Counted from the stretch's first letter, positions 1-6,621 are shown. The stretch is 6,621 nt of DNA from a virus (IMGVR_UViG_3300007747_000100); one strand, 5' to 3'. Notes: generated by a model from the letters alone, not told the origin. Made by a program: numbers and translations.

Positions 1-99
1 CGGAGAGTCAGGGACATTTATGTTCAGGCAGCCCAGCACATGAGGCCAGTTGTTTTCAGACGCACTGATAACCTGACGGATAAGATCAATGTTTCGCAT
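1..99 (-). CDS. hypothetical protein, N-terminal fragment (gene continues beyond window start)
   Basis: ATG at 99..97 with GGGGG about 7 nt upstream; frame open to position 1 (MRNIDLIRQVISASENNWPHVLGCLNINVPDSP...). Start is 12 nt downstream of the stop of the preceding same-strand gene. Too short for the ORF track. Confidence 0.3.
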   Translation of the reverse strand, partial: MRNIDLIRQVISASENNWPHVLGCLNINVPDSP

Positions 100-111
100 T
101 CTGGCCCCCGT

Positions 112-714
112 TTAGTGCGTCACTGGTGCTTCTGGGATGCCGTTTTCGTTTAGTTCGGCAATAAAGCTGTTGTGAAGATCGGCAAGCACTTCTCGCCCAA
201 ACGAAGTGAGTGTTCCCTGTTCGACATCGAACATGTTGCTGTAAAAAATGATGGCATTCTTTGTTCCGACATCAACACCATATTTCTCGATCATTGCGCC
301 CTCAATGTTGTTTGCCATAGCGAGGCGCTCTGCTACTGGATACAGCGGCATGGCGACGATGCCATTGGAATAAACAGAAACCACGGAATGATTGCCACTG
401 TCATCAATAATGCTGACGGTGCCGTTTTCCTTTCTCATTTCATTGATTAATGCTGTTGCTATCAGCCAGCGCCACATAATCACGTGATGCTGTGATGTGT
501 AATCGAAATATCCCTGGTTGCCGCCACTGGCAATAGCGAGATGTATAAACATGCCTTCATCTGGTTTATCGTCATAATCCCCGGCATCCAGACGATTTAC
601 GGCATCAATATATGAGACGGTCTCAACGCGTTCTGTCATGCCATTGTTGCTGCGGTGCATGATGTTTACGCCGTCAGGCGTTGCTTCTGCATGGAAGGTT
701 AAGAAATTATTCAT
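112..714 (-). CDS. hypothetical protein, about 200 aa (track ORF 112..771 trimmed)
   Basis: The track ORF begins at a TTG (771..769). The first ATG with a Shine-Dalgarno (GAGG, 6-nt spacer) is at 714..712, giving MNNFLTF.... This ATG overlaps the stop of the upstream 57-aa ORF as ATGAATAA. Stop TAA at 114..112. No family recognised. Confidence 0.6.
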   Translation of the reverse strand: MNNFLTFHAEATPDGVNIMHRSNNGMTERVETVSYIDAVNRLDAGDYDDKPDEGMFIHLAIASGGNQGYFDYTSQHHVIMWRWLIATALINEMRKENGTVSIIDDSGNHSVVSVYSNGIVAMPLYPVAERLAMANNIEGAMIEKYGVDVGTKNAIIFYSNMFDVEQGTLTSFGREVLADLHNSFIAELNENGIPEAPVTH

Positions 715-880
715 GTTTCGCCTCGCCTGAATGATTCTGTAACTCATAGAGCAGTGACATAACCGCGCCAATCATTAACTTGTCTCTGTTGCTTGGGCTG
801 GCCCCTTCAAGCCAGAACCCTAAAACAGTCTGAACCTGTTCGATGCGACATTGCGCTTCAATGAGCTGGATGTTGGTCAT
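707..880 (-). CDS. small hypothetical protein, 57 aa (not in ORF track)
   Basis: Manual translation of the minus strand: ATG 880..878 overlaps the TGA of the 87-aa gene (ATGA), with GGAG 8 nt upstream. Open frame MTNIQLIEAQCRIEQVQTVLGFWLEGASPSNRDKLMIGAVMSLLYELQNHSGEAKHE to TAA 709..707, which overlaps the next gene's ATG. Fills what would otherwise be a 105-nt gap in a tightly packed operon. Confidence 0.5.
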   Translation of the reverse strand: MTNIQLIEAQCRIEQVQTVLGFWLEGASPSNRDKLMIGAVMSLLYELQNHSGEAKHE

Positions 881-1140
881 TTCGCACTCTCCACATCGAT
901 TAAACTGATATCTATCAGGGAGGTAACTTTTTGTAGCCAGCTATTGATTACTGTCGCCTGTTCCCCTCCCACCGATGGAAGAATCTCATTCATCACATGA
1001 ACCAGACCTGTGCGCGCTCTGGTAAGCCGTTCAGTCGTGCGATCTGCAAGAGTGAATGTGTCTGGATATGGCTCTTCACGGCTCAGCAATGATTCAATTT
1101 CCAGCTCACACGGATGACGATAAATTAAGTTGATATTCAT
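877..1140 (-). CDS. small hypothetical protein, 87 aa
   Basis: Track ORF; ATG 1140..1138 overlaps the upstream stop (ATGA); GGGGGTG upstream; stop TGA 879..877. Confidence 0.6.
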   Translation of the reverse strand: MNINLIYRHPCELEIESLLSREEPYPDTFTLADRTTERLTRARTGLVHVMNEILPSVGGEQATVINSWLQKVTSLIDISLIDVESAK

Positions 1141-1331
1141 TTTTCACCCCCAAGAATTACCAGCTCTGCACGGGCATCGTTAACCAAAGATGAGCACGCT
1201 TTAATCGCATCCACGACATCAGTAGCGTCCATTTCTTCAGCCGAAAGACTGACAGCAACCAGGACAGCCGCTGCTTGCTCGATTAATTGAAGTGCGGACG
1301 TAAGGCGAGGGGTATTAATTGAGTTATTCAT
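1137..1331 (-). CDS. small hypothetical protein, 64 aa
   Basis: Track ORF; ATG 1331..1329 overlaps the stop of the 72-aa gene (ATGAATAA); G-rich tract about 8 nt upstream; stop TGA 1139..1137. Confidence 0.55.
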   Translation of the reverse strand: MNNSINTPRLTSALQLIEQAAAVLVAVSLSAEEMDATDVVDAIKACSSLVNDARAELVILGGEK

Positions 1332-1542
1332 TGGTTGCCCCCGTTTTTACTGGCATTTCGCCACCTTCCAGCAGGAAATGAACGTCACGAACGGCGAGAT
1401 CCAATATCGCGAGTAACGCCTTCAGTCTTTCGTCTCGTGAGGGAGAGTTGCTCACCAGAATGTCGTTAATCACTTCTGTCAGTGTGATGATCTGGCTTGT
1501 GCGTTCGAGGGGATCCATATGCACATCGTAGTTTTTAATCAT
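1324..1542 (-). CDS. small hypothetical protein, 72 aa (C-terminal segment of the 344-aa track ORF, with its own start)
   Basis: In-frame ATG at 1542..1540 preceded by GGAGG (6-nt spacer) and overlapping the TAA of the 1535..1729 ORF (ATGATTAA). Product MIKNYDVHMDPLERTSQ... has normal mixed composition. Stop TAA 1326..1324. Confidence 0.55.
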   Translation of the reverse strand: MIKNYDVHMDPLERTSQIITLTEVINDILVSNSPSRDERLKALLAILDLAVRDVHFLLEGGEMPVKTGATNE

Positions 1543-1729
1543 GTGCCACCTCCATGCGGATACGACCAGCAAAAAAGCAGATGTGATCGCGCACCAGAGA
1601 ACGGCGAGCATCGCGTTCAGACTCGGCAGCAATATGATGAATTTTGGCGGTAATTGTCGGGCAATCGCGGCGAACTGCGGCGATAATCCAGATAAATTGC
1701 GTTTTTTGGGTAGGGGTAGTAGCCAGCAT
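1535..1729 (-). CDS. small hypothetical protein, 64 aa
   Basis: ATG 1729..1727 preceded by a perfect AAGGAGG with 7-nt spacer. Balanced composition (MLATTPTQKTQFIWIIAAVRRDCPTITAKIHHIAAESERDARR...), whereas the alternative frame (the 344-aa track ORF) over the same bases is Leu/Pro/Ala-rich with no acidic residues. Stop TAA overlaps the next start. Confidence 0.55.
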   Translation of the reverse strand: MLATTPTQKTQFIWIIAAVRRDCPTITAKIHHIAAESERDARRSLVRDHICFFAGRIRMEVAHD

Positions 1730-2358
1730 GTGGCAGCCTCCTTCAGATAGCAGGTTACGCTACCACCGGAAACGCCAATTTCGCTGGTGGTAGCCCAGAC
1801 AGGGTTGGCGTAACCGGCTCTGAAGGATACCGGCGCTTCCGAAGAAGCCCCCGCCTGAGCCACCATTGATTGACAAAGGCGCTGGATTATACACCAACGC
1901 CCAAAAAATGGGTGAGTCAGACCTACGACATAAAAAAAGACGCTCGGCGCGTCATATGTCGCCTTCAGAATTTTCAGGACGCCAATCCCGGCACCCGTTT
2001 TATGAGGTGCCTTATAACCATAAACCGTGTTGCCGCATAACGGCAAGCTCTTTTTTATGGACTCCGAAAACTCACTATTGGAAGTAACGTCACGCGCGTG
2101 GACGAAGGTTTTTGTGGAGTCACTACACGAGCAGAGAAAGCCATCTACGACCAGAAATTCTCTGGCATAGCCGCTGACCTTCTCAACGCTAACACCATCG
2201 ACCGTAATTTCTGACATAGTTAAGGCATCCGCTCCTACCACCAGCAAATGATAAACTTTGCTTGTATCTGCTGTATTAATGTCTGACTTTGCTGTCATAT
2301 TGCTGGATTTTGGCGACATACCAGCCAGTGAAAATGTCTTCTTCTGGACGGGTATCAT
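1730..2358 (-). CDS. hypothetical protein, 5' portion of the 344-aa track ORF; 3' end unresolved (possible frameshift/pseudogene or genuine overlap)
   Basis: ATG 2358..2356 overlaps the stop of the 59-aa ORF (ATGA), GGAGG with 7-nt spacer upstream. The frame stays open to 1324, but downstream of about 1730 the evidence favours two separate small genes. The other two minus frames have stops at 1765..1763 and 1757..1755, just upstream of the next gene's RBS. Contains terminator-like hairpins on both strands. Confidence 0.35.
1932..1953 (-). terminator. terminator-like hairpin plus T-run on the minus strand, inside the long ORF
   Basis: On the minus strand: GACGC / GCGTC stem (1939-1953 in plus coordinates) with a 5-nt loop, followed by seven T (plus-strand A-run 1932-1938). 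The same bases encode ...[10 protein letters not shown] in the ORF frame. Confidence 0.3.
2030..2056 (+). terminator. terminator-like hairpin plus T-run on the plus strand, inside the long minus-strand ORF
   Basis: Stem TTGCCG (2030-2035) / CGGCAA (2041-2046), loop CATAA, then GCTC and TTTTTT (2051-2056). Confidence 0.35.
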
Positions 2359-2534
2359 TGGTTAACCTCCGCGAACTCCTTCATGAAACGCGCCAGCGGT
2401 TGTACGCATGGCGATTGATACCCGTCGCGATAAAACGTCACTCGGTTGTGAGACACGCTTTCGACAGTAACGAGTGCTCCGTGGGCATCTTTGTAGCGTT
2501 TTTGTGGTTGTGGTATTCCTGTTGGCTTAGACAT
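2355..2534 (-). CDS. small hypothetical protein, 59 aa (trimmed from track ORF 2355..2621)
   Basis: Internal ATG at 2534..2532 preceded by GGAGG (6-nt spacer) and overlapping the TAA of the AntA-like gene by 8 nt. The track's longer N-terminal extension would lie out of frame inside that gene. Stop TGA 2357..2355. Confidence 0.5.
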   Translation of the reverse strand: MSKPTGIPQPQKRYKDAHGALVTVESVSHNRVTFYRDGYQSPCVQPLARFMKEFAEVNQ

Positions 2535-3360
2535 TGAGCGCCTCCAGACGCTTGGCGAGCCAGCGTTGCGACAGGTGGGTGAGTTCTCCTTTGCGCTGCT
2601 CATATTCCATGCCCATATCAATTAACGTGATATTGGTGCTTTCGAGATATGAGAGGTGCTCAAGCTGTTCTGCGTTCATATGGTCGCGAGGTTCGCCAGA
2701 ATAGCCATTTATCCGCGCCCACTGCTTAGCAGTTAGCCCACCAAGAACGATACGAGAAATCATATTGCTCTCGTTTGTGTAGTGGTGTTGCTGCGTCGTT
2801 TTCCCCTGCTCGGCACGGGCCATGTTCAGCGCATCGCACATTGGCTTAAAGTTGTTTGCGGCACTGATACGGGCTTTTAGCTGGCGACGATAGCGGGCGG
2901 CGATTTCAGGCACGGTACGCTGTAATTCTTCCTCGCACTGGATGAAATAACGACGGATAGCGCGACCCTGATCATTGCGTTCGATCATTGCCAGTTCTTT
3001 CGCCATTCCGACACTTAACAGATAGTCTTTGCCGGGTCTGCCAGAGTGCTTAATCTTGCTGTAAGCCGCGCCATTCGGGCTTTTCCCCAAATTTGGGGAA
3101 ATTGTTTTATGGACTGAGTAATCGTGCCCAATGGTGAAGTCATATTCAGAGATGCGATCAGTGATCCATGTAGAGAAGTCTTTTCCCACGCCCAACGCTT
3201 TGTGTAACGCTTTTGCGCTAACAATATTGGTTTCACGCCCACCTATATGACCAGAAATAACCGGGACAATTGCGGCAAATTCATTACCGTTAATTGTGCC
3301 CAGAGAGGCGTTCAGATGAGGGGCGGCCTCAGAAATTAATCTGCTTTTTTCGATGTTCAT
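2527..3360 (-). CDS. putative phage antirepressor-like protein (AntA-type N-terminal domain), 277 aa
   Basis: Track ORF; ATG 3360 with GGAG (7-nt spacer). The N-terminal region (...NIVSAKALHKALGVGKDFSTWITDRISEYDFTIGHDY...) resembles the AntA/antirepressor domain as I recall it; this is a family-level call from memory, not a search result. Confidence 0.6.
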   Translation of the reverse strand: MNIEKSRLISEAAPHLNASLGTINGNEFAAIVPVISGHIGGRETNIVSAKALHKALGVGKDFSTWITDRISEYDFTIGHDYSVHKTISPNLGKSPNGAAYSKIKHSGRPGKDYLLSVGMAKELAMIERNDQGRAIRRYFIQCEEELQRTVPEIAARYRRQLKARISAANNFKPMCDALNMARAEQGKTTQQHHYTNESNMISRIVLGGLTAKQWARINGYSGEPRDHMNAEQLEHLSYLESTNITLIDMGMEYEQRKGELTHLSQRWLAKRLEALNV

Positions 3361-3372
3361 TTTTAGTCTCCG

Positions 3373-3678
3373 TTAGGCGGCGTTAAACGCGTCCGGGTAG
3401 AGTTTCAGAATGTCGGCAATTTCCTGCTGAGAAAGTCCGTTGTGATCATTTATGTTCGCAAGATGGTTAACATGAGTGATCACTTTCAGAACATCACCAC
3501 GGCAGGAGAAACGGTAGCGAAGGTGTGTTCCGATACCATCAGGATTCTTTTCGTCGATACGCTCCAGAGTGATTCCAAGCTGGCGTTCTAACTCTGTTGC
3601 ATAGTTACGACCAGAAGACAGACGGCAGTAGCGAAGAATGTCATTTTCTGTCCATCCCTCTATACCAGTACGCAGCAT
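3373..3678 (-). CDS. hypothetical protein, 101 aa
   Basis: Track ORF; ATG 3678, weak AAGAG upstream; 12-nt gap to the next gene; same strand and operon context as alpA. No family recognised. Confidence 0.6.
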   Translation of the reverse strand: MLRTGIEGWTENDILRYCRLSSGRNYATELERQLGITLERIDEKNPDGIGTHLRYRFSCRGDVLKVITHVNHLANINDHNGLSQQEIADILKLYPDAFNAA

Positions 3679-3690
3679 ATAGACTCTTAG

Positions 3691-3716
3691 CCGCCTGTAA
3701 TGGGCGGTTTTTCTTT
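3691..3716 (+). terminator. hairpin plus T-tract in the alpA-to-101-aa intergenic gap, terminator-like on the plus (antisense) strand
   Basis: CCGCC (3691-3695) / GGCGG (3702-3706) stem with a 7-nt loop, followed by TTTTTCTTTT (3707-3716). On the coding (minus) strand there is no U-run after the hairpin. Confidence 0.3.
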
Positions 3717-3720
3717 TCCA

Positions 3721-3939
3721 TCAGGCCACCTTCCCGCGGCGTTCTGCCAGCCAGTTATTAATTTCCACCGCATCAAACGCAGTCACGTTATCTGTTAGCT
3801 TCACTGGGCGTGGAAGAGTGCCATTTTTAACCCATCTATCAATAGTAGGCAGTGAAACACCTAGCAATTCCGGCATGCGAAAGCGACGGATGTATCCAGT
3901 TGTTGGGATAGCTGATGATGCTGGCTTGTGTGCTGTCAT
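3721..3939 (-). CDS. alpA: AlpA/Vis-family phage transcriptional regulator / excisionase-like HTH protein, 72 aa (start uncertain)
   Basis: Segment RMPELLGVSLPTIDRWVKNGTLPRPVKL matches the characteristic AlpA-family helix-turn-helix pattern (recalled family knowledge, so the symbol is family-level). The ATG at 3939 has only a weak SD and the 5' end carries TGATAGCT-type motifs, so the true start could be further downstream (e.g. Met22). Confidence 0.75.
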   Translation of the reverse strand: MTAHKPASSAIPTTGYIRRFRMPELLGVSLPTIDRWVKNGTLPRPVKLTDNVTAFDAVEINNWLAERRGKVA

Positions 3940-3956
3940 ATCTCTAGTAACCTCTC

Positions 3957-3969
3957 TGATAGCTCATGA
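3957..3969 (+). repeat. 13-mer TGATAGCTCATGA, copy 1 (alpA leader / 5' end)
   Basis: Exact 13-bp match to 6435-6447; contains the recurrent oriented 8-mer TGATAGCT. Confidence 0.5.
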
Positions 3970-4020
3970 AGTTACTTAAAGTTTAGTGGTTGCCCATACA
4001 GTATTTCTATTAAGACTAGA

Positions 4021-4052
4021 ATCTATTGAAAGAAATTATAAATCTATTGAAA
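4021..4052. promoter_or_regulatory. operator-like direct repeats ATCTATTGAAA (x2, 21 bp apart) flanking a minus-strand TATAAT; candidate promoter/operator of the alpA operon
   Basis: ATCTATTGAAA at 4021-4031 and 4042-4052. Between them the minus strand reads TATAAT (plus coordinates 4035-4040). No convincing -35 found; the A/T-rich upstream could act as an UP element. About 95 nt upstream of the alpA ATG. Confidence 0.3.
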
Positions 4053-4230
4053 AAATACCGATCCACTGAAAGATTGCAAATACAGGTGGGATAATTATTT
4101 TCTTTATTTTCAATTAGTTACCAGTTTAAAAAATCATTGTTTTATCAAAGAGTTATATCTTTCATCGTCATTCATCATGTTTTTACATTTCTTTTTATCT
4201 TTTATTATTCAATTGGTTGAGTCGGTTTAT

Positions 4231-4270
4231 AATGGCTCATGATGGCTTAAAATGGCTAATGATAGCTGGC
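4231..4270 (+). repeat. four tandem 10-bp repeats (aATGGCTcat / gATGGCTtaa / aATGGCTaat / gATAGCTggc), helically phased
   Basis: Direct reading: core (A/G)AT(G/A)GCT begins at 4231, 4241, 4251 and 4261, exactly 10 bp apart, in the AT-rich region between the 216-aa gene and alpA. Confidence 0.6.
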
Positions 4271-4410
4271 GTATCTTTTAGAGATGGGGTGATTACAGAT
4301 GAACTAAGCCGAACAGATATAGCAATGGCTAGGCATAGAATTATCTATGCTGGTGGAGATGGGTAAACAGGTAATGCCCCGCCATTGCTTTGGAGGGGCG
4401 TGAAAAGTGA

Positions 4411-5061
4411 TTAGTCGAGATCGTGGACAGCTAATAAAGCCCGTGAGATTTTTTCTAGGAATGTGGCTTTTGCTATTCCTTTATGGGATATCCCTTCATC
4501 CTTGATTAAGGTTTCTATGTCACGGTATATAGCTGTGCGATTAGGTTTCCCATTTTGGATGTAGGAAGATGAGCCTGATTTTTTTATCAGCAGATGTACT
4601 ATCAACCCCATCATTTTCATTGTCCCGTTTTCCTCATCCTGCTTTCTATGCTGCCCACGTCCGCTGCGGTTGGTTTCTTTGATGTAGTTTACTAACTGGA
4701 GTCCTCCAAGGTTTCGGGCTTTTTCTTCCCAGCCCTTGGTGCCACGCAAATCATCAATCGCTTCTGATATTTTCTGAACAATTATTTCTGGTGTATTTGT
4801 GTCAATAAATGGGTAAGAAGCTAAGAAAATATCAAGGGCATGGCAAGGCTCGTCTTTACTAGTTTTTTCACCTCTGTACACCTTGATAGCTCTGGCAAGA
4901 TGAGTTCTGACAAAATCGACATATTCGAAATTTTCCTCAGGCACATCGCTAATGCGCATAGATGGGTTTAGGCCAGCCAAGGCCACAGCCATTTCATGAG
5001 GGGTAATCGATACAGATGAACAAAGCCGTTCGATTGGCGATTTTCTCAAGATGTTGTTCAC
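4411..5061 (-). CDS. hypothetical protein, 216 aa, unknown function; integrase-coupled accessory gene
   Basis: GTG start 5061..5059 overlaps the integrase stop (GTGA) and is preceded by GGAGG with a 5-nt spacer. Long open frame, and visibly more AT-rich than the integrase gene by eye. No conserved motif recognised (no Walker A, no clear transmembrane segment). Confidence 0.7.
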   Translation of the reverse strand: MNNILRKSPIERLCSSVSITPHEMAVALAGLNPSMRISDVPEENFEYVDFVRTHLARAIKVYRGEKTSKDEPCHALDIFLASYPFIDTNTPEIIVQKISEAIDDLRGTKGWEEKARNLGGLQLVNYIKETNRSGRGQHRKQDEENGTMKMMGLIVHLLIKKSGSSSYIQNGKPNRTAIYRDIETLIKDEGISHKGIAKATFLEKISRALLAVHDLD

Positions 5062-6326
5062 ATTTGCCTCCGGGCTTTATCGAATGGCGTTACGTTGTAG
5101 TCTTTCCCGCTTTCCAGTGCCACCAGCAGATCAGCCCACTGTGCCAGCGCAGCTTTACGCTCATCAAAATACTGATGGCGGTTATAAATCCCCTCCACAC
5201 CCTTAATGCGATGATTGAGGCATCGTTCCGCTACGACAGGATCAACACCCAATGCTGCTAAATGAGTACGTGCGGTACGCCGGAAGTCGTGAATCGTGAA
5301 ATTAGGCACATCCGGCATTTCGGCGCGAACCTTAGCCAGTGCTACGGGTAAAGTGCTTTCCTGAATATGTGGGATCATTCTGTTTTGCATCTTCCTGGCT
5401 GGAAGCACCCATGCGCTATTACATGAAAAGGTGTGTAGCTCTCTCAACCATTCAACGGCTGGGGAAGGTAGAGGTATATCAATAGGGTCTCCGTTTTTGC
5501 TGCGTTCTTCCGGCAAATGCCATACCGCACCATCTAAATCAAACTCTTCCCATCGTGCGGCGCATAACTCCATCTTACGAACGCATAGTGCCAGCAATAG
5601 CTTAAATGTCAGTTCGTTCTGGCGGCTGAATCCTTTTGCGGTGCGCATAGCCTCGAATAGCCTGATAAGCTCATCGCGAGTTAGCCAACGGTCGCGGGAA
5701 ACCTCTTTACCACCAGCATCAGATACTTCAAACGCTGAACAAGGGTTTATCTCCAGAGCGTGGCGTTTTATCCCATAGTCAAAGATACGGCGTGCCCAGC
5801 GTAATACATCTGTTGCTATCGTTGGTGCTCCTCGGTCAACGATACCTTTCAACATGTCGTCAATGTGGCGTGGCTTAACGTCCTCTACCTTCATATGCCC
5901 AATGCAGGGGTTAATATCCTTATCAATTCTCCGGCGAAGGATATCGGGATGTTTCCATCTCGGAAGTATCTGGCGCTCGAAGTATTCGGAGGCCAGATCT
6001 GAAACACGCATGGCGTTTTTCTCAGCCTCCATTTTTGCCAGTGCTTCAGCTTTTCGTTCCTGTTTCTCTGCTGCTACGTCATAGCCAAGAGCAACTCTGG
6101 CTGACAGCTCTTTTGCTGTTTCTCTGGCTTTTGATAGTGACAGTTCGGAGTAAGAGCCTATAACCATAGCCCGCTGCTTTCCTGCGAGCTTATAGCGGAA
6201 TCGCCAGAACGGGACTGTGTAGTTTTTGGGGTAGCAAATATAAAGGCCGTTGCCGTCTGCCTTGCCATCAAATCTGTCTCCCGCCTTTATCCATGCGCGG
6301 ATCTGCATATCTGTGAGTTTTGGCAT
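5058..6326 (-). CDS. int: tyrosine site-specific integrase, P4-like family (about 422 aa)
   Basis: N-terminus MPKLTDMQIRAWIKAG...DGNGLYI matches the arm-binding N-terminal domain typical of P4-type integrases. The C-terminal region has the tyrosine-recombinase hallmarks (HDFRRTARTH; GIYNRHQY with the presumed catalytic Tyr). Start trimmed from the track's 6410 to the ATG at 6326..6324. Confidence 0.9.
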   Translation of the reverse strand: MPKLTDMQIRAWIKAGDRFDGKADGNGLYICYPKNYTVPFWRFRYKLAGKQRAMVIGSYSELSLSKARETAKELSARVALGYDVAAEKQERKAEALAKMEAEKNAMRVSDLASEYFERQILPRWKHPDILRRRIDKDINPCIGHMKVEDVKPRHIDDMLKGIVDRGAPTIATDVLRWARRIFDYGIKRHALEINPCSAFEVSDAGGKEVSRDRWLTRDELIRLFEAMRTAKGFSRQNELTFKLLLALCVRKMELCAARWEEFDLDGAVWHLPEERSKNGDPIDIPLPSPAVEWLRELHTFSCNSAWVLPARKMQNRMIPHIQESTLPVALAKVRAEMPDVPNFTIHDFRRTARTHLAALGVDPVVAERCLNHRIKGVEGIYNRHQYFDERKAALAQWADLLVALESGKDYNVTPFDKARRQM

Positions 6327-6355
6327 TGCGAATACCTGAATATCGAATATGGGGG

Positions 6356-6405
6356 TGTACATAAAGCAATGTACATGAAAGTCATTATGTACACCTCTAT
6401 GTACA
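6356..6405. promoter_or_regulatory. four TGTACA hexamers immediately upstream of the integrase start (candidate regulator or arm-type binding sites)
   Basis: TGTACA at 6356-6361, 6370-6375, 6388-6393 and 6400-6405, mostly in the context ATGTACA(C/T), within 80 bp upstream of the int ATG at 6326. Confidence 0.45.
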
Positions 6406-6434
6406 CGCATATTGTGCGCTTTGTTGCGTTGTTA

Positions 6435-6447
6435 TGATAGCTCATGA
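6435..6447 (+). repeat. 13-mer TGATAGCTCATGA, copy 2 (between the int upstream region and the junction terminator); candidate att or arm-type site
   Basis: Exact 13-bp direct repeat of 3957-3969. A further TGATAGCT lies at 6508-6515, overlapping the stop codon of the flanking gene. Confidence 0.45.
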
Positions 6448-6451
6448 TAAC

Positions 6452-6488
6452 AAAAAAGCCCGACATTTCGCGGGCTTTGTGGTTTTTT
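6452..6488. terminator. bidirectional rho-independent terminator
   Basis: GC-rich stem GCCCG (6458-6462) / CGGGC (6471-6475), extendable to AAAGCCCG/CGGGCTTT, with an 8-nt loop. It is flanked by an A-run (6452-6457) and a T-run (6483-6488), so it reads as hairpin plus U-tract on either strand. Confidence 0.6.
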
Positions 6489-6514
6489 GCTGCTTGGTGA
6501 TTTTTACTGATAGC

Positions 6515-6621
6515 TTATTCGATATTCTGAATCTGCTCGCGCATCTGCTCAATCAACACTTTCAGCTCGATGGCAGAATTCGTCACTTCGGCATTGATAG
6601 ATTTCGAAGCAAGAGTGTTCG
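6515..6621 (-). CDS. 3' end of an unidentified, presumably chromosomal gene (partial)
   Basis: Minus-strand frame open from the window edge to TAA at 6517..6515 (C-terminus ...INAEVTNSAIELKVLIEQMREQIQNIE), followed downstream by the hairpin terminator. Product not recognised. Confidence 0.5.
   Translation of the reverse strand, partial: NTLASKSINAEVTNSAIELKVLIEQMREQIQNIE

What the first reader, a model, noticed from the sequence alone, without database searches (positions are those of the whole stretch)
6327..6520. Island junction lacks a tRNA: the integrase abuts the 3' end and terminator of a protein-coding gene
P4-type integrases usually sit next to the 3' end of a tRNA or tmRNA gene. I see no tRNA-like sequence (no T-arm or acceptor/CCA features) in the 300 bp beyond the int start. 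Instead there is the stop codon of a minus-strand gene (6517..6515) and a bidirectional terminator (6452-6488), with TGATAGCT copies on both sides of that terminator (6435, 6508). The att core may therefore lie in 6420-6520 and overlap the end of the flanking gene, or the element may be plasmid-borne or use a non-tRNA site.
Basis: partly seen in the sequence, partly recalled or inferred. Interest (0 to 1): 0.45.

Follow-up and report, generated by a model that had tools for sequence, protein, structure and literature searches.

The report
Satellite island inserted in yicC's tail
The integrase sits next to a protein-coding gene because this E. coli phage-satellite island inserts into the last few codons of yicC, a well-documented non-tRNA landing site, and brings its own copy of the gene's tail and a new terminator, so the finding is real but ordinary.

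Summary
There is no tRNA or tmRNA. The minus-strand stop codon at 6517..6515 belongs to yicC. The hairpin at 6455-6478 is an intrinsic terminator. Both TGATAGCT copies are present.

The element uses a non-tRNA site and its att core overlaps the end of the flanking gene. However, the core is the 21-bp block at 6515-6535 (yicC stop plus its last six codons), not 6420-6520. The terminator and both TGATAGCT copies are island DNA from the P arm of attP, not att repeats.

All four att forms were found:
- attB in K-12 and ATCC 25922.
- attL next to dinD in strain PA45B.
- attR in the window.
- attP in a 12,152-bp circular E. coli replicon, and in five distinct metagenome contigs (one also in IMG/VR).

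Strand exchange most likely lies in G(A/G)ATCTG (6529-6535).

The island backbone matches EcCIMP1, an experimentally shown phage-inducible chromosomal island, but carries a different alpA-int-att module. Int homologues down to about 40% identity sit behind yicC across Gamma- and Betaproteobacteria. More distant homologues sit behind tRNAs.

The yicC 3' end is a published att site for MGIs, SGI1-like elements and PICIs, so novelty is low.

One side result: 8 of 12 attL copies carry deletions that all end at the same base.

The parts
5058..6326 (-). int: a P4-type tyrosine integrase of 422 aa with an arm-binding N-domain, a central domain and a catalytic domain
   Evidence: Pfam domains Arm-DNA-bind_3, Phage_int_M and Phage_integrase. 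It is 25% identical to P4 Int over its full length (E 2e-20), with the box-I Arg, the H-x-x-R motif and the Tyr aligned. Annotated as a tyrosine recombinase in PA45B.
6355..6406 (+). Four RTGTACAY repeats (6355, 6369, 6387, 6399), the last two 12 bp apart. These are candidate arm-type Int-binding sites of the P arm.
   Evidence: All 4 window matches fall in this stretch, against 0.32 expected. A second doubled copy (ATGTACAC twice, 12 bp apart, same orientation) lies 64-84 bp beyond the core on the other arm. GTAC-type repeats occur in most homologous loci, with a median of 3. P4 attP has the same doubled-repeat geometry.
6435..6451 (+). TGATAGCTCATGATAAC: the distal TGATAGC/TGATAAC pair of the P arm.
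   Evidence: A GCTATCA-like word sits at offsets 63/73 nt after the yicC stop in 23 of 39 species. The 13-mer TGATAGCTCATGA recurs at 3957, just upstream of alpA.
6445..6478 (-). Island-borne intrinsic terminator that now ends yicC transcription (stem 6478-6455, U-tract 6454-6445). It also separates int from yicC read-through.
   Evidence: Terminator scan. RNA fold. Hairpin plus T-tract conserved in position in 25 loci. It is absent from the empty sites, which have a different hairpin, and present in the attP circle.
6488..6514 (+). Core-proximal P-arm repeats in roughly 10-bp phase (TGCTGCTTGG / TGATTTTTAC / TGATAGC).
   Evidence: words at offsets 0/10/20 nt after the stop in 18 of 39 species. 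The layout is kept, with different words, in the Steroidobacteraceae loci.
6515..6535 (.). The att identity block TTATTCGATATTCTGAATCTG, which is the yicC stop codon plus its last six codons (QIQNIE*). This is the attR core.
   Evidence: Three-way alignment of attB, attL and attR. The same block joins the two island ends in attP.
6529..6535 (.). Proposed strand-exchange (overlap) segment GAATCTG. DNA to its left is island, DNA to its right is chromosome.
   Evidence: This is an inference from three lines of evidence. Identity between attP and attB ends at 6535/6536. G6521 and A6524 are island alleles while A/G6530 swaps between host and attP. All 8 attL deletions end at the base matching 6528/6529.
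6515..6621 (-). 3' part of yicC (YicC/YloC endoribonuclease). The CDS continues past the window edge.
3721..3939 (-). alpA/vis-like small HTH protein. It is a candidate excisionase/activator that travels with int and attP.
   Evidence: Pfam Phage_AlpA. 32% identical to P4 Vis. Homology to EcCIMP1 ends at 3731, so alpA, orf216, int and attP form one exchangeable module.

Best explanation

1. Recombination. The island's P4-type tyrosine integrase (5058-6326) recombines a 21-bp attP core with the same sequence in the chromosome. That core is a copy of the yicC stop codon plus its last six codons.
2. Strand exchange. Exchange most likely occurs in G(A/G)ATCTG (6529-6535).
3. Gene repair. Island DNA therefore supplies the last four to five codons and the stop of yicC. 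The protein is unchanged, and the island also supplies a new intrinsic terminator (6445-6478).
4. Displaced tail. The original yicC tail and its native terminator are left at attL beside dinD.
5. Arms of attP. The space between the core and int is the P arm. It holds phased TGATAGC-type words and four RTGTACAY repeats. A second doubled RTGTACAY lies on the P' arm, giving the same geometry as phage P4 attP.
6. Excision. Excision regenerates a circle carrying attP.

What is shown: the boundaries, the existence of all four att forms, the island-borne terminator, the conservation of yicC targeting, and the backbone identity to EcCIMP1.

What is inferred: the exact cleavage positions, which protein binds which repeat, and helper-phage dependence of this particular copy.
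For: - **Identity of the flank.** The window is 100% identical to E. coli PA45B, where the flanking gene is annotated as yicC and an island of about 18 kb lies between dinD and yicC.
- **Empty sites.** K-12 and ATCC 25922 have dinD and yicC adjacent.
- **Block shared by all att forms.** attB, attL and attR share only the 21-bp block.
- **Island alleles inside yicC.** The only three differences between the window's yicC part and the same-lineage empty site fall at 6521, 6524 and 6530. All three are synonymous. 6521 and 6524 are the alleles carried by all three PA45B-type attP contigs and the circular replicon; 6530 matches some of them.
- **attP found.** The predicted attP junction occurs in 1 IMG/VR contig and 5 metagenome contigs (one is the same 9,677-bp sequence as the IMG/VR contig, so five distinct). 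These join the int arm directly to the far arm and carry no yicC or dinD body.
- **Circular form.** A closed 12,152-bp circular replicon carries the island alone. Its P arm plus core differ from window 6326-6535 by 2 of 210 bases.
- **Conserved targeting.** All 49 Int homologues whose locus holds a yicC (40-92% identity; Enterobacterales, Aeromonas, Tolumonas, Zobellella, Vogesella, Rhodocyclales, Steroidobacteraceae) have it full-length and ending about 170-360 bp upstream on the same strand. Of the 20 homologues at or below 34% identity, 16 sit beside tRNA genes.
- **Backbone.** Window 1-3731 is 88-100% identical to EcCIMP1, whose phage-dependent excision and transfer were shown experimentally (PMC11773190).
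- **Published site.** The yicC 3' end is a published att site (PMC4344509, PMC8409611, PMC8978831, bioRxiv 10.1101/2022.07.18.500453).
Against: - No experiment on this copy shows excision or helper-phage induction.
- PA45B's attL lacks 2 bp in the middle of the core, so this particular copy may be unable to excise.
- Position 4 of the block (T/C) is the same in attL and attR in every strain sampled. A simple crossover at 6529-6535 does not predict this unless island and host alleles happen to match or are homogenised.
- The island carries a gene annotated 'phage DNA ejection protein', which fits the strict no-structural-genes PICI criterion imperfectly.
- The attP-containing metagenome contigs could in principle come from tandem arrays rather than circles. 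The closed circular record argues against that.
Confidence: 0.88

Rival explanations
1. The att repeats are the two TGATAGCT copies, and the island boundary lies between them (6420-6520), leaving the terminator and yicC tail as chromosomal DNA.
For: The word is over-represented (6 copies against 1.0 expected) and flanks the terminator.
Against: The empty sites contain neither TGATAGCT copy nor this terminator. attL has no TGATAGCT. In attP both copies lie on the same arm, left of the core. Homology to island-free genomes begins only at 6513-6515.
Confidence: 0.02
2. A tRNA or tmRNA just beyond the window edge is the true target, and yicC is island cargo.
For: Most P4-type integrases, including the distant homologues recovered here, sit next to tRNA genes.
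Against: In the identical PA45B context the next genes are yicC, rph, pyrE, slmA and dut, with no RNA gene in 20 kb. yicC is matched in 5403 of 5426 E. coli genomes and stays next to dinD when the island is absent.
Confidence: 0.01
3. The element is a conjugatively mobilised island (an MGI or SGI1-like IME of the kind known at yicC) rather than a phage satellite.
For: The best-studied yicC-targeting elements are MGIs mobilised by SXT/R391 ICEs and SGI1-like elements mobilised by IncC plasmids (PMC4344509, PMC8409611).
Against: The annotated gene content is int, alpA, antA, ash, icd-like, primase, a P22-type ejection protein and perC, with no gene annotated as relaxase, mpsA, traG or traN. No dedicated search for transfer genes or an oriT was run. 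About 5.9 kb of the island, including window 1-3731, is 88-100% identical to the validated PICI EcCIMP1. An attP contig is classed as viral in IMG/VR.
Confidence: 0.05
4. The island is a fixed, immobile remnant. The junction reflects an ancient event spread only by homologous recombination of flanking DNA, not by ongoing site-specific integration.
For: 8 of 12 sampled attL cores carry deletions that should impair excision, including the copy in the window's genome. Position 4 of the block is host-linked on both sides.
Against: The same int/attP module sits in hosts with at least four different native yicC-tail alleles, and attL keeps the host allele each time. Intact attP junctions and a circular form exist. 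The integrase ORF is intact and 98-100% conserved in hundreds of genomes.
Confidence: 0.1

Closest known systems
[quoted passage not shown]
   Same: Unidirectional layout: int, alpA, antirepressor, DUF4222, ash/icd, primase, ejection protein, perC. Window 1-3731 is 88-100% identical to EcCIMP1. PICIs at yicC are already in published reference sets.
   Different: EcCIMP1 sits at tRNA-Thr and has an unrelated int/alpA module. Here the alpA-orf216-int-attP module (3732-6535) is replaced by a yicC-specific one. Helper phage and induction were not tested for this copy.
Satellite phage P4 Int/attP (NC_001609)
   Same: Same integrase architecture, 25% identity, with the catalytic residues aligned. 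There is a Vis/AlpA-type small HTH protein. The attP geometry is the same: doubled 12-bp arm repeats next to the int start, the core about 110-135 bp away, and doubled repeats 55-85 bp beyond the core.
   Different: P4 targets tRNA-Leu (leuX) and uses different repeat words. The psu/sid/delta capsid-size module is absent here.
MGIVflInd1-type mobilizable genomic islands and SGI1-like IEs (IEEcoMOD1, IESenUSA1) that integrate at the 3' end of yicC (PMC4344509, PMC8409611)
   Same: Same target gene end, including in E. coli K-12. A tyrosine integrase plus a small RDF. int lies next to the reconstituted yicC.
   Different: Those elements are mobilised by conjugation and carry oriT mimics or mpsA/traG/traN genes, while this island has satellite-type cargo. 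Sequence relatedness of the integrases was not tested here.
e14 / phage 21 at icd and fis-targeting PICIs: attP carries a replacement 3' end of a protein-coding target (described in PMC10111431)
   Same: The strategy is the same: integrate inside the coding tail and supply a substitute tail. For fis PICIs the identity block likewise covers the stop codon and abuts a terminator.
   Different: The target gene differs and the block is shorter (21 bp). Here the island also supplies the terminator outright.

Membership tests
P4-type (arm-binding, DUF4102) tyrosine integrases | N-terminal Arm-DNA-bind_3 domain, then a central SAM-like domain, then a C-terminal Phage_integrase catalytic domain | tested here: met
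   Pfam hits: PF13356 at 8.9e-20, PF22022 at 7e-17, PF00589 at 6.7e-17.
P4-type (arm-binding, DUF4102) tyrosine integrases | Detectable full-length homology to P4 Int, with the catalytic Arg (box I), H-x-x-R (box II) and Tyr conserved | tested here: met
   BLASTP gives 25% identity over 411 columns, E 2e-20. The motifs VRKMEL/VRSSEL, HDFRRTAR/HGFRTMAR and GIY/AAY align.
P4-type (arm-binding, DUF4102) tyrosine integrases | Target is the 3' part of a tRNA or tmRNA gene (usual, but not obligatory) | tested here: not met
   No tRNA or tmRNA; the target is yicC. Of 20 homologues at or below 34% identity, 16 do sit at tRNA-Ser/Phe/Thr/Gly/Leu.
yicC-3'-end-specific integrative elements (IntyicC of MGIs, SGI1-like IEs, GI21-like islands, yicC PICIs) | Integration within the 3' end of yicC, with int adjacent to the reconstituted gene and direct repeats of the yicC tail at both ends | tested here: met
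   attB, attL, attR and attP were all recovered, with a 21-bp shared block.
yicC-3'-end-specific integrative elements (IntyicC of MGIs, SGI1-like IEs, GI21-like islands, yicC PICIs) | Integrase falls in the same clade as IntMGI / IntyicC of the published elements | not tested
What was shown is that homologues at 40% identity or more in other genera keep the yicC association.
Gram-negative phage-inducible chromosomal islands (criteria of PMC6092414) | int, an alpA master regulator and a primase/replication module, all transcribed in one direction; size about 10-20 kb | tested here: met
   Annotation of PA45B, UMNK88, A3, SH19PTE6 and the 12-kb circle. Pfam on the window ORFs.
Gram-negative phage-inducible chromosomal islands (criteria of PMC6092414) | No phage structural or lysis genes | tested here: inconclusive
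   No capsid, tail, terminase or lysis genes are annotated. However, a 'phage DNA ejection protein' and a large neighbouring ORF are present, as they are in EcCIMP1.
Gram-negative phage-inducible chromosomal islands (criteria of PMC6092414) | Induction, replication and packaging dependent on a helper phage | not testable with these tools
   Support is indirect only: backbone identity to EcCIMP1, an attP contig in IMG/VR and a circular episomal record.
Rho-independent terminator | GC-rich hairpin immediately followed by a U-tract on the transcribed strand, downstream of a stop codon | tested here: met
   8-pair stem (5 GC pairs) followed by TTTGTT on the minus strand, starting 37 nt after the yicC stop codon. 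The position is conserved in 25 loci, with little covariation. The fold z-score alone is not significant, at -1.15.

The most novel reading that the evidence does not exclude
The displaced yicC tail at attL is recurrently scarred. In 8 of 12 sampled islands it has lost 2, 6, 9 or 11 bp. The 2-bp loss alone recurs on at least three different host yicC-tail alleles. Every deletion ends at the same phosphodiester (block position 14|15, equivalent to window 6528/6529) and leaves G(A/G)ATCTG intact, while attP and attR are never affected. The most novel reading is that the integrase itself inflicts this damage at its top-strand cleavage site. If so, the scar marks the cleavage position and locks most integrated copies in place, or makes excision leave a truncated YicC. 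This would extend the 'PICI-specific damage of the displaced tRNA fragment' reported in PMC10111431 to a protein-coding target. It could also explain that group's remark that yicC identity blocks 'drift' until they no longer overlap.
Probability: 0.35. Interest if true: 0.4.

Novelty: already known. Interest (0 to 1): 0.17.

Why it matters
It settles a puzzling-looking junction as a textbook case. A P4-type integrase clade has switched from tRNA genes to the conserved tail of yicC, and it repairs the gene with its own copy of the tail plus a terminator. In practice this gives exact island boundaries (chromosome from 6536, island up to about 6528). It also gives an attP, attB, attL and attR set usable for PCR assays and for annotating at least 460 of 5426 complete E. 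coli genomes that carry this junction. Finally, it provides a clean system, with a protein-coding target, a short core and many natural alleles, for asking why PICI integrases leave site-specific deletions in the displaced target fragment.

Tried and rejected
- **tRNA/tmRNA searches.** ARAGORN and Rfam found no tRNA or tmRNA in the window. The weak Rfam Trp_leader hit (22.9 bits, below gathering) is just the terminator and was dismissed.
- **Promoter scan.** The sigma-70 scan of 6250-6621 found no promoter-like site, so no int promoter can be named.
- **Fold energy.** RNA fold energy of the terminator region is not significantly better than shuffles (z -1.15). The terminator call therefore rests on the pattern scan and on positional conservation.
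- **Crossover at the left edge.** I first considered a crossover at the left edge of the block (TTATTC). I rejected it because attL keeps host-lineage alleles at block positions 7 and 10 while attR and attP carry island alleles there.
- **P4-like satellite.** Rejected as a classification because no psu/sid/delta genes are annotated and Int is only 25% identical to P4 Int.
- **Literature dead ends.** The C. rodentium prophage paper mentions yicC only as a knockout strain. The 2020 TIGER paper (PMC7192596) contains no text on 'damage' or yicC.
- **Chromosome of the strain with the circular record.** I tried to find it by guessing the accession (NZ_CP148426.1). That turned out to be another strain, so whether an integrated copy coexists with the circle is unknown.
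- **Large protein searches not run.** I did not run the search for homologous proteins, structure prediction or fold search because the question was answered by DNA comparison.

Full report
**Observation.** The integrase ORF on the minus strand starts at 6326 (CDS 5058..6326), matching the RefSeq annotation of the identical region in E. coli PA45B. ARAGORN finds no tRNA or tmRNA in the window. A permissive Rfam scan finds nothing tRNA-like in 6327-6621, only a sub-threshold Trp_leader match caused by the terminator. The minus-strand stop codon at 6517..6515 is the stop of yicC, which encodes a YicC/YloC endoribonuclease. A hairpin at 6455-6478 scores as terminator-like on both strands. TGATAGCT occurs at 6435 and 6508, and the 7-mer TGATAGC is over-represented in the window at 6 copies against 1.0 expected.

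**Where the island ends.** The window is 100% identical to E. coli PA45B. There, about 18 kb of extra DNA lies between dinD and yicC. In K-12 and in ATCC 25922 these two genes are adjacent. I aligned the empty site with both ends of the island:
- attB (ATCC 25922): ...GGCGTTACGAG TTATTCAATGTTCTGGATCTG CTCGCGCATC...
- attL (PA45B, dinD side): ...GGCGTTACGAG TTATTCAATGTT--GGATCTG TTTGTAGAGTATTGGC...
- attR (window 6508-6541): TGATAGC TTATTCGATATTCTGAATCTG CTCGCG

The shared block is 21 bp (window 6515-6535). It is the reverse complement of CAG ATT CAG AAT ATC GAA TAA, that is, the last six codons of yicC (QIQNIE) plus the stop codon. Island-free genomes match the window only from 6513-6515 rightwards.

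ATCC 25922 has the same flanks as PA45B on both sides, so it serves as the same-lineage empty site. It matches the window's yicC part (6515-6621) at 97.2% over 107 bases, which is three mismatches. In the aligned stretch the only three differences are at 6521, 6524 and 6530. All three are synonymous. The island therefore reaches into yicC to at least 6530 and rewrites its tail without changing the protein.

The terminator at 6455-6478 is island DNA. The native yicC terminator (GCCGCTCTGTTTGAGTGGGCGGC) remains on the dinD side of the island.

**attP exists.** From attR and attL I predicted the attP junction and searched public collections with the pattern GATRGCTTAYTCRATRTTCTGRATCTGTTT. It occurs in one IMG/VR contig and five metagenome contigs. 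One metagenome contig is the same 9,677-bp sequence as the IMG/VR contig, so there are five distinct contigs. BLAST shows that each joins the int-side arm directly to the far-end arm of the island, and none contains any yicC or dinD body.

In addition, a complete E. coli genome (strain Z1323CEC0013) includes a closed circular 12,152-bp 'plasmid', NZ_CP148430.1. It consists only of such an island, with the same AlpA and orf216 proteins as PA45B. Its attP reads P arm - TTATTCGATATTCTGAATCTG - TTTGTAGAGTATTGGC. Its P arm plus core differ from window 6326-6535 at 2 of 210 positions.

**Where strand exchange occurs (inference).** Three lines of evidence point to G(A/G)ATCTG, block positions 15-21, window 6529-6535:
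- Identity between attP and attB stops at 21|22: TTTG in the island against CTCG in the host.
- In PA45B-type elements, positions 7 and 10 are always the island alleles (G, A) in attR and attP, and the host alleles in attL. Position 16 is G or A in different attP contigs, as expected for a base inside the heteroduplex overlap.
- Every deletion seen in attL ends exactly at 14|15 (see the attL paragraph below).

One observation does not fit neatly. Position 4 (T or C) is the same in attL and attR within each strain.

**Arms of attP.** RTGTACAY occurs four times in the window, all within 6355-6406 (0.32 expected). The last two copies are 12 bp apart. A second doubled ATGTACAC (12 bp apart, same orientation) lies 64-84 bp beyond the core on the other arm. 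Phage P4's annotated attP has the same geometry, with different words.

In 39 homologous loci from other species, GCTATCA-like words (up to 1 mismatch) sit at offsets 0, 10 or 20 nt after the yicC stop in 18 loci, at 63/73 nt in 23 loci, and at both in 17 loci. The more distant Steroidobacteraceae loci keep the layout but use other words (CTTCCG; TGTAGCT four times). That is the pattern expected of protein-binding sites co-evolving with their proteins.

The 13-mer TGATAGCTCATGA recurs at 3957, just upstream of alpA, and TGATRGCT words cluster at 4228-4268. The AlpA here is 32% identical to P4 Vis, which is annotated as an excisionase and transcriptional regulator. AlpA is therefore a reasonable candidate binder, but this is speculation.

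**The terminator.** A hairpin plus T-tract is present at the same position in 25 loci across genera. Covariation is weak: 3 of 6 pairs show compensatory changes and the covariation term is 0.11. The fold energy alone is not significantly better than shuffled sequence (z -1.15). On the minus strand the terminator serves yicC and shields int from read-through. No plus-strand client is evident.

**A yicC-specific integrase clade.** A scan of one genome per species returned 80 loci with Int homologues. A tblastn search with YicC found the gene in 49 of them, always full-length and on the same strand as int. It ends about 170-360 bp upstream of int, about 170-190 bp in the Enterobacterales and related loci. 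These homologues are 40-92% identical to the window Int. They come from Enterobacterales, Aeromonas, Tolumonas, Zobellella, Vogesella, Azonexus, Propionivibrio and Steroidobacteraceae MAGs.

Eleven loci with homologues above 40% identity lack a yicC hit. Eight of those are truncated contigs or partial int genes. The other three are informative:
- A Klebsiella michiganensis homologue (63% identity) has the same arm layout but sits behind the der (engA) stop, which is a target switch.
- Rahnella and Pantoea stewartii carry the 21-bp yicC-tail block upstream of int without a yicC gene, suggesting a tandem or secondary site.

Of the 20 homologues at or below 34% identity, 16 sit next to tRNA-Ser, Phe, Thr, Gly or Leu genes. 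The absence of a tRNA is therefore a clade property, not an anomaly of this copy.

**What the island is.** Pfam and RefSeq annotation give this gene order: int, orf216, alpA, a hypothetical ORF, antA, DUF4222, ash (with Rfam C4 and isrK RNAs inside it), small ORFs, a DUF5906 primase, a phage DNA ejection protein, an ImmA/IrrE peptidase and perC. All backbone genes from int to the ejection protein are transcribed in one direction.

Window 1-3731 is 88-100% identical to EcCIMP1 of E. coli MP1. EcCIMP1 is a PICI whose excision and transfer depend on helper phage Kapi1 (PMC11773190). It sits at tRNA-Thr, and homology stops at the 3' end of alpA. The alpA-orf216-int-attP segment is therefore an exchangeable module.

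Related islands of 11-18 kb with this int module occupy yicC in many E. coli lineages. At least 460 of 5426 complete genomes carry the int-yicC junction.

**Comparison with the literature.** Integration at the 3' end of yicC is well established:
- MGIs mobilised by SXT/R391 ICEs, including in E. coli K-12 (PMC4344509).
- SGI1-like elements in E. coli and Salmonella (PMC8409611).
- Shewanella GI21-type islands (PMC8978831).
- 'Prophages' at yicC_dinD in O157 (PMC9997748). The one yicC-dinD element I inspected, in STEC strain 2011C_4247, is a 15-kb PICI-like island.

Supplying a replacement gene tail in attP is the classic strategy at icd, fis and tRNA genes (PMC10111431). The finding is therefore already known in kind, and I score it low.

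**Side result: scarred attL copies.** Among 12 attL copies sampled:
- Four are intact: A3, ET979, NRZ14408, A30.
- Four have lost CT at block positions 13-14: PA45B, SH19PTE6, MSB1_1D and Ecol_244. The first three sit on three different host alleles.
- Four have lost 6, 9, 9 and 11 bp: UMNK88, A28, 2011C_4247 and ECONIH5.

All eight deletions end at 14|15 and leave G(A/G)ATCTG intact. attR and attP are always intact.

[quoted passage not shown] Here it appears at a protein-coding target. It may mean that many integrated copies, including the one in the window's genome, are locked in. It may also mark the integrase cleavage site. The sample is small and was not corrected for shared ancestry, so I report it as a lead rather than a result.

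**Verdict.** The structure is attR of a yicC-targeting PICI, with the core at 6515-6535 and an island-borne terminator and arm sites at 6355-6514. It is of known kind and low interest.

Noticed in passing
L001 2239-2257 (PA45B attL); also L004, L006, L008, L100-L103: 8 of 12 sampled attL copies of the yicC tail carry deletions of 2, 6, 9 or 11 bp. All of them end at the same base (block position 14|15) and spare G(A/G)ATCTG. attR and attP are always intact. This resembles the 'damage' of displaced tRNA fragments reported for PICIs (PMC10111431).
   Followed up: partly
window 1783-1870 (-) and 1933-2010 (-): Strong Rfam hits to C4 antisense RNA (79.9 bits) and isrK (67.8 bits) lie inside the ORF annotated 'ash family protein' (1324-2358). 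This points to a P1/P7-type c4-icd-ant immunity cassette carried on the satellite, next to an AntA/AntB antirepressor gene.
   Followed up: no
window 3957-3969 and 4228-4268: The 13-mer TGATAGCTCATGA just upstream of alpA is identical to the one at 6435. Four TGATRGCT/ATGGCT words in roughly 10-bp phase lie further upstream. The same word class therefore marks both the alpA promoter region and the att P arm, which suggests that one protein (perhaps AlpA/Vis) acts at both.
   Followed up: partly
window 3731/3732: Homology to the validated PICI EcCIMP1 (88-100% identity) stops abruptly at the 3' end of alpA. The segment alpA-orf216-int-attP behaves as a swappable integration module.
   Followed up: yes
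L097 (NZ_CP148430.1, whole record): A 12,152-bp closed circular 'plasmid' of a chicken E. coli isolate is simply the excised island (int, orf216, alpA, antA, ash, primase, perC) with an intact attP. It is mis-filed as a plasmid. Whether the host chromosome also holds a copy was not determined.
   Followed up: partly
L042 2150-2500 (Klebsiella michiganensis DSM 25444): A 63%-identical integrase with the same P-arm layout (GCTATCA words, terminator, GTGTAC repeats) lies directly after the stop codon of der (engA) instead of yicC. This is an apparent target switch within the clade.
   Followed up: partly
L035 ~2298 (Rahnella woolbedingensis) and L067 ~2292 (Pantoea stewartii): The 21-bp yicC-tail block sits upstream of int, but no yicC gene precedes it. 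Likely explanations are a tandem array, a secondary site or a rearrangement.
   Followed up: no
L011 (contig CACSKA010000004.1, labelled Chryseobacterium sp. 18061): This contig carries a yicC 92% identical (protein) to E. coli's and an 89%-identical integrase. That is implausible for a Bacteroidota genome, so it is probably contamination or mislabelling.
   Followed up: no
L103 ~16030-16060 (STEC 2011C_4247 attR): A different 15-kb PICI-like island at yicC supplies a tail reading ..QIQNVE* instead of ..QIQNIE*. In this case the replacement is not perfectly silent.
   Followed up: no
L102 184-203 (E. coli Ecol_244): An attL-type junction (CT-deleted core followed by the same P' arm) has a different, non-dinD left flank. 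This suggests two islands in tandem at yicC.
   Followed up: no
window 4411-5061 (-): A 216-aa ORF overlaps the int stop codon by 4 nt, has no Pfam hit, and is conserved next to int in related islands, including the circular form. Its function is unknown.
   Followed up: no
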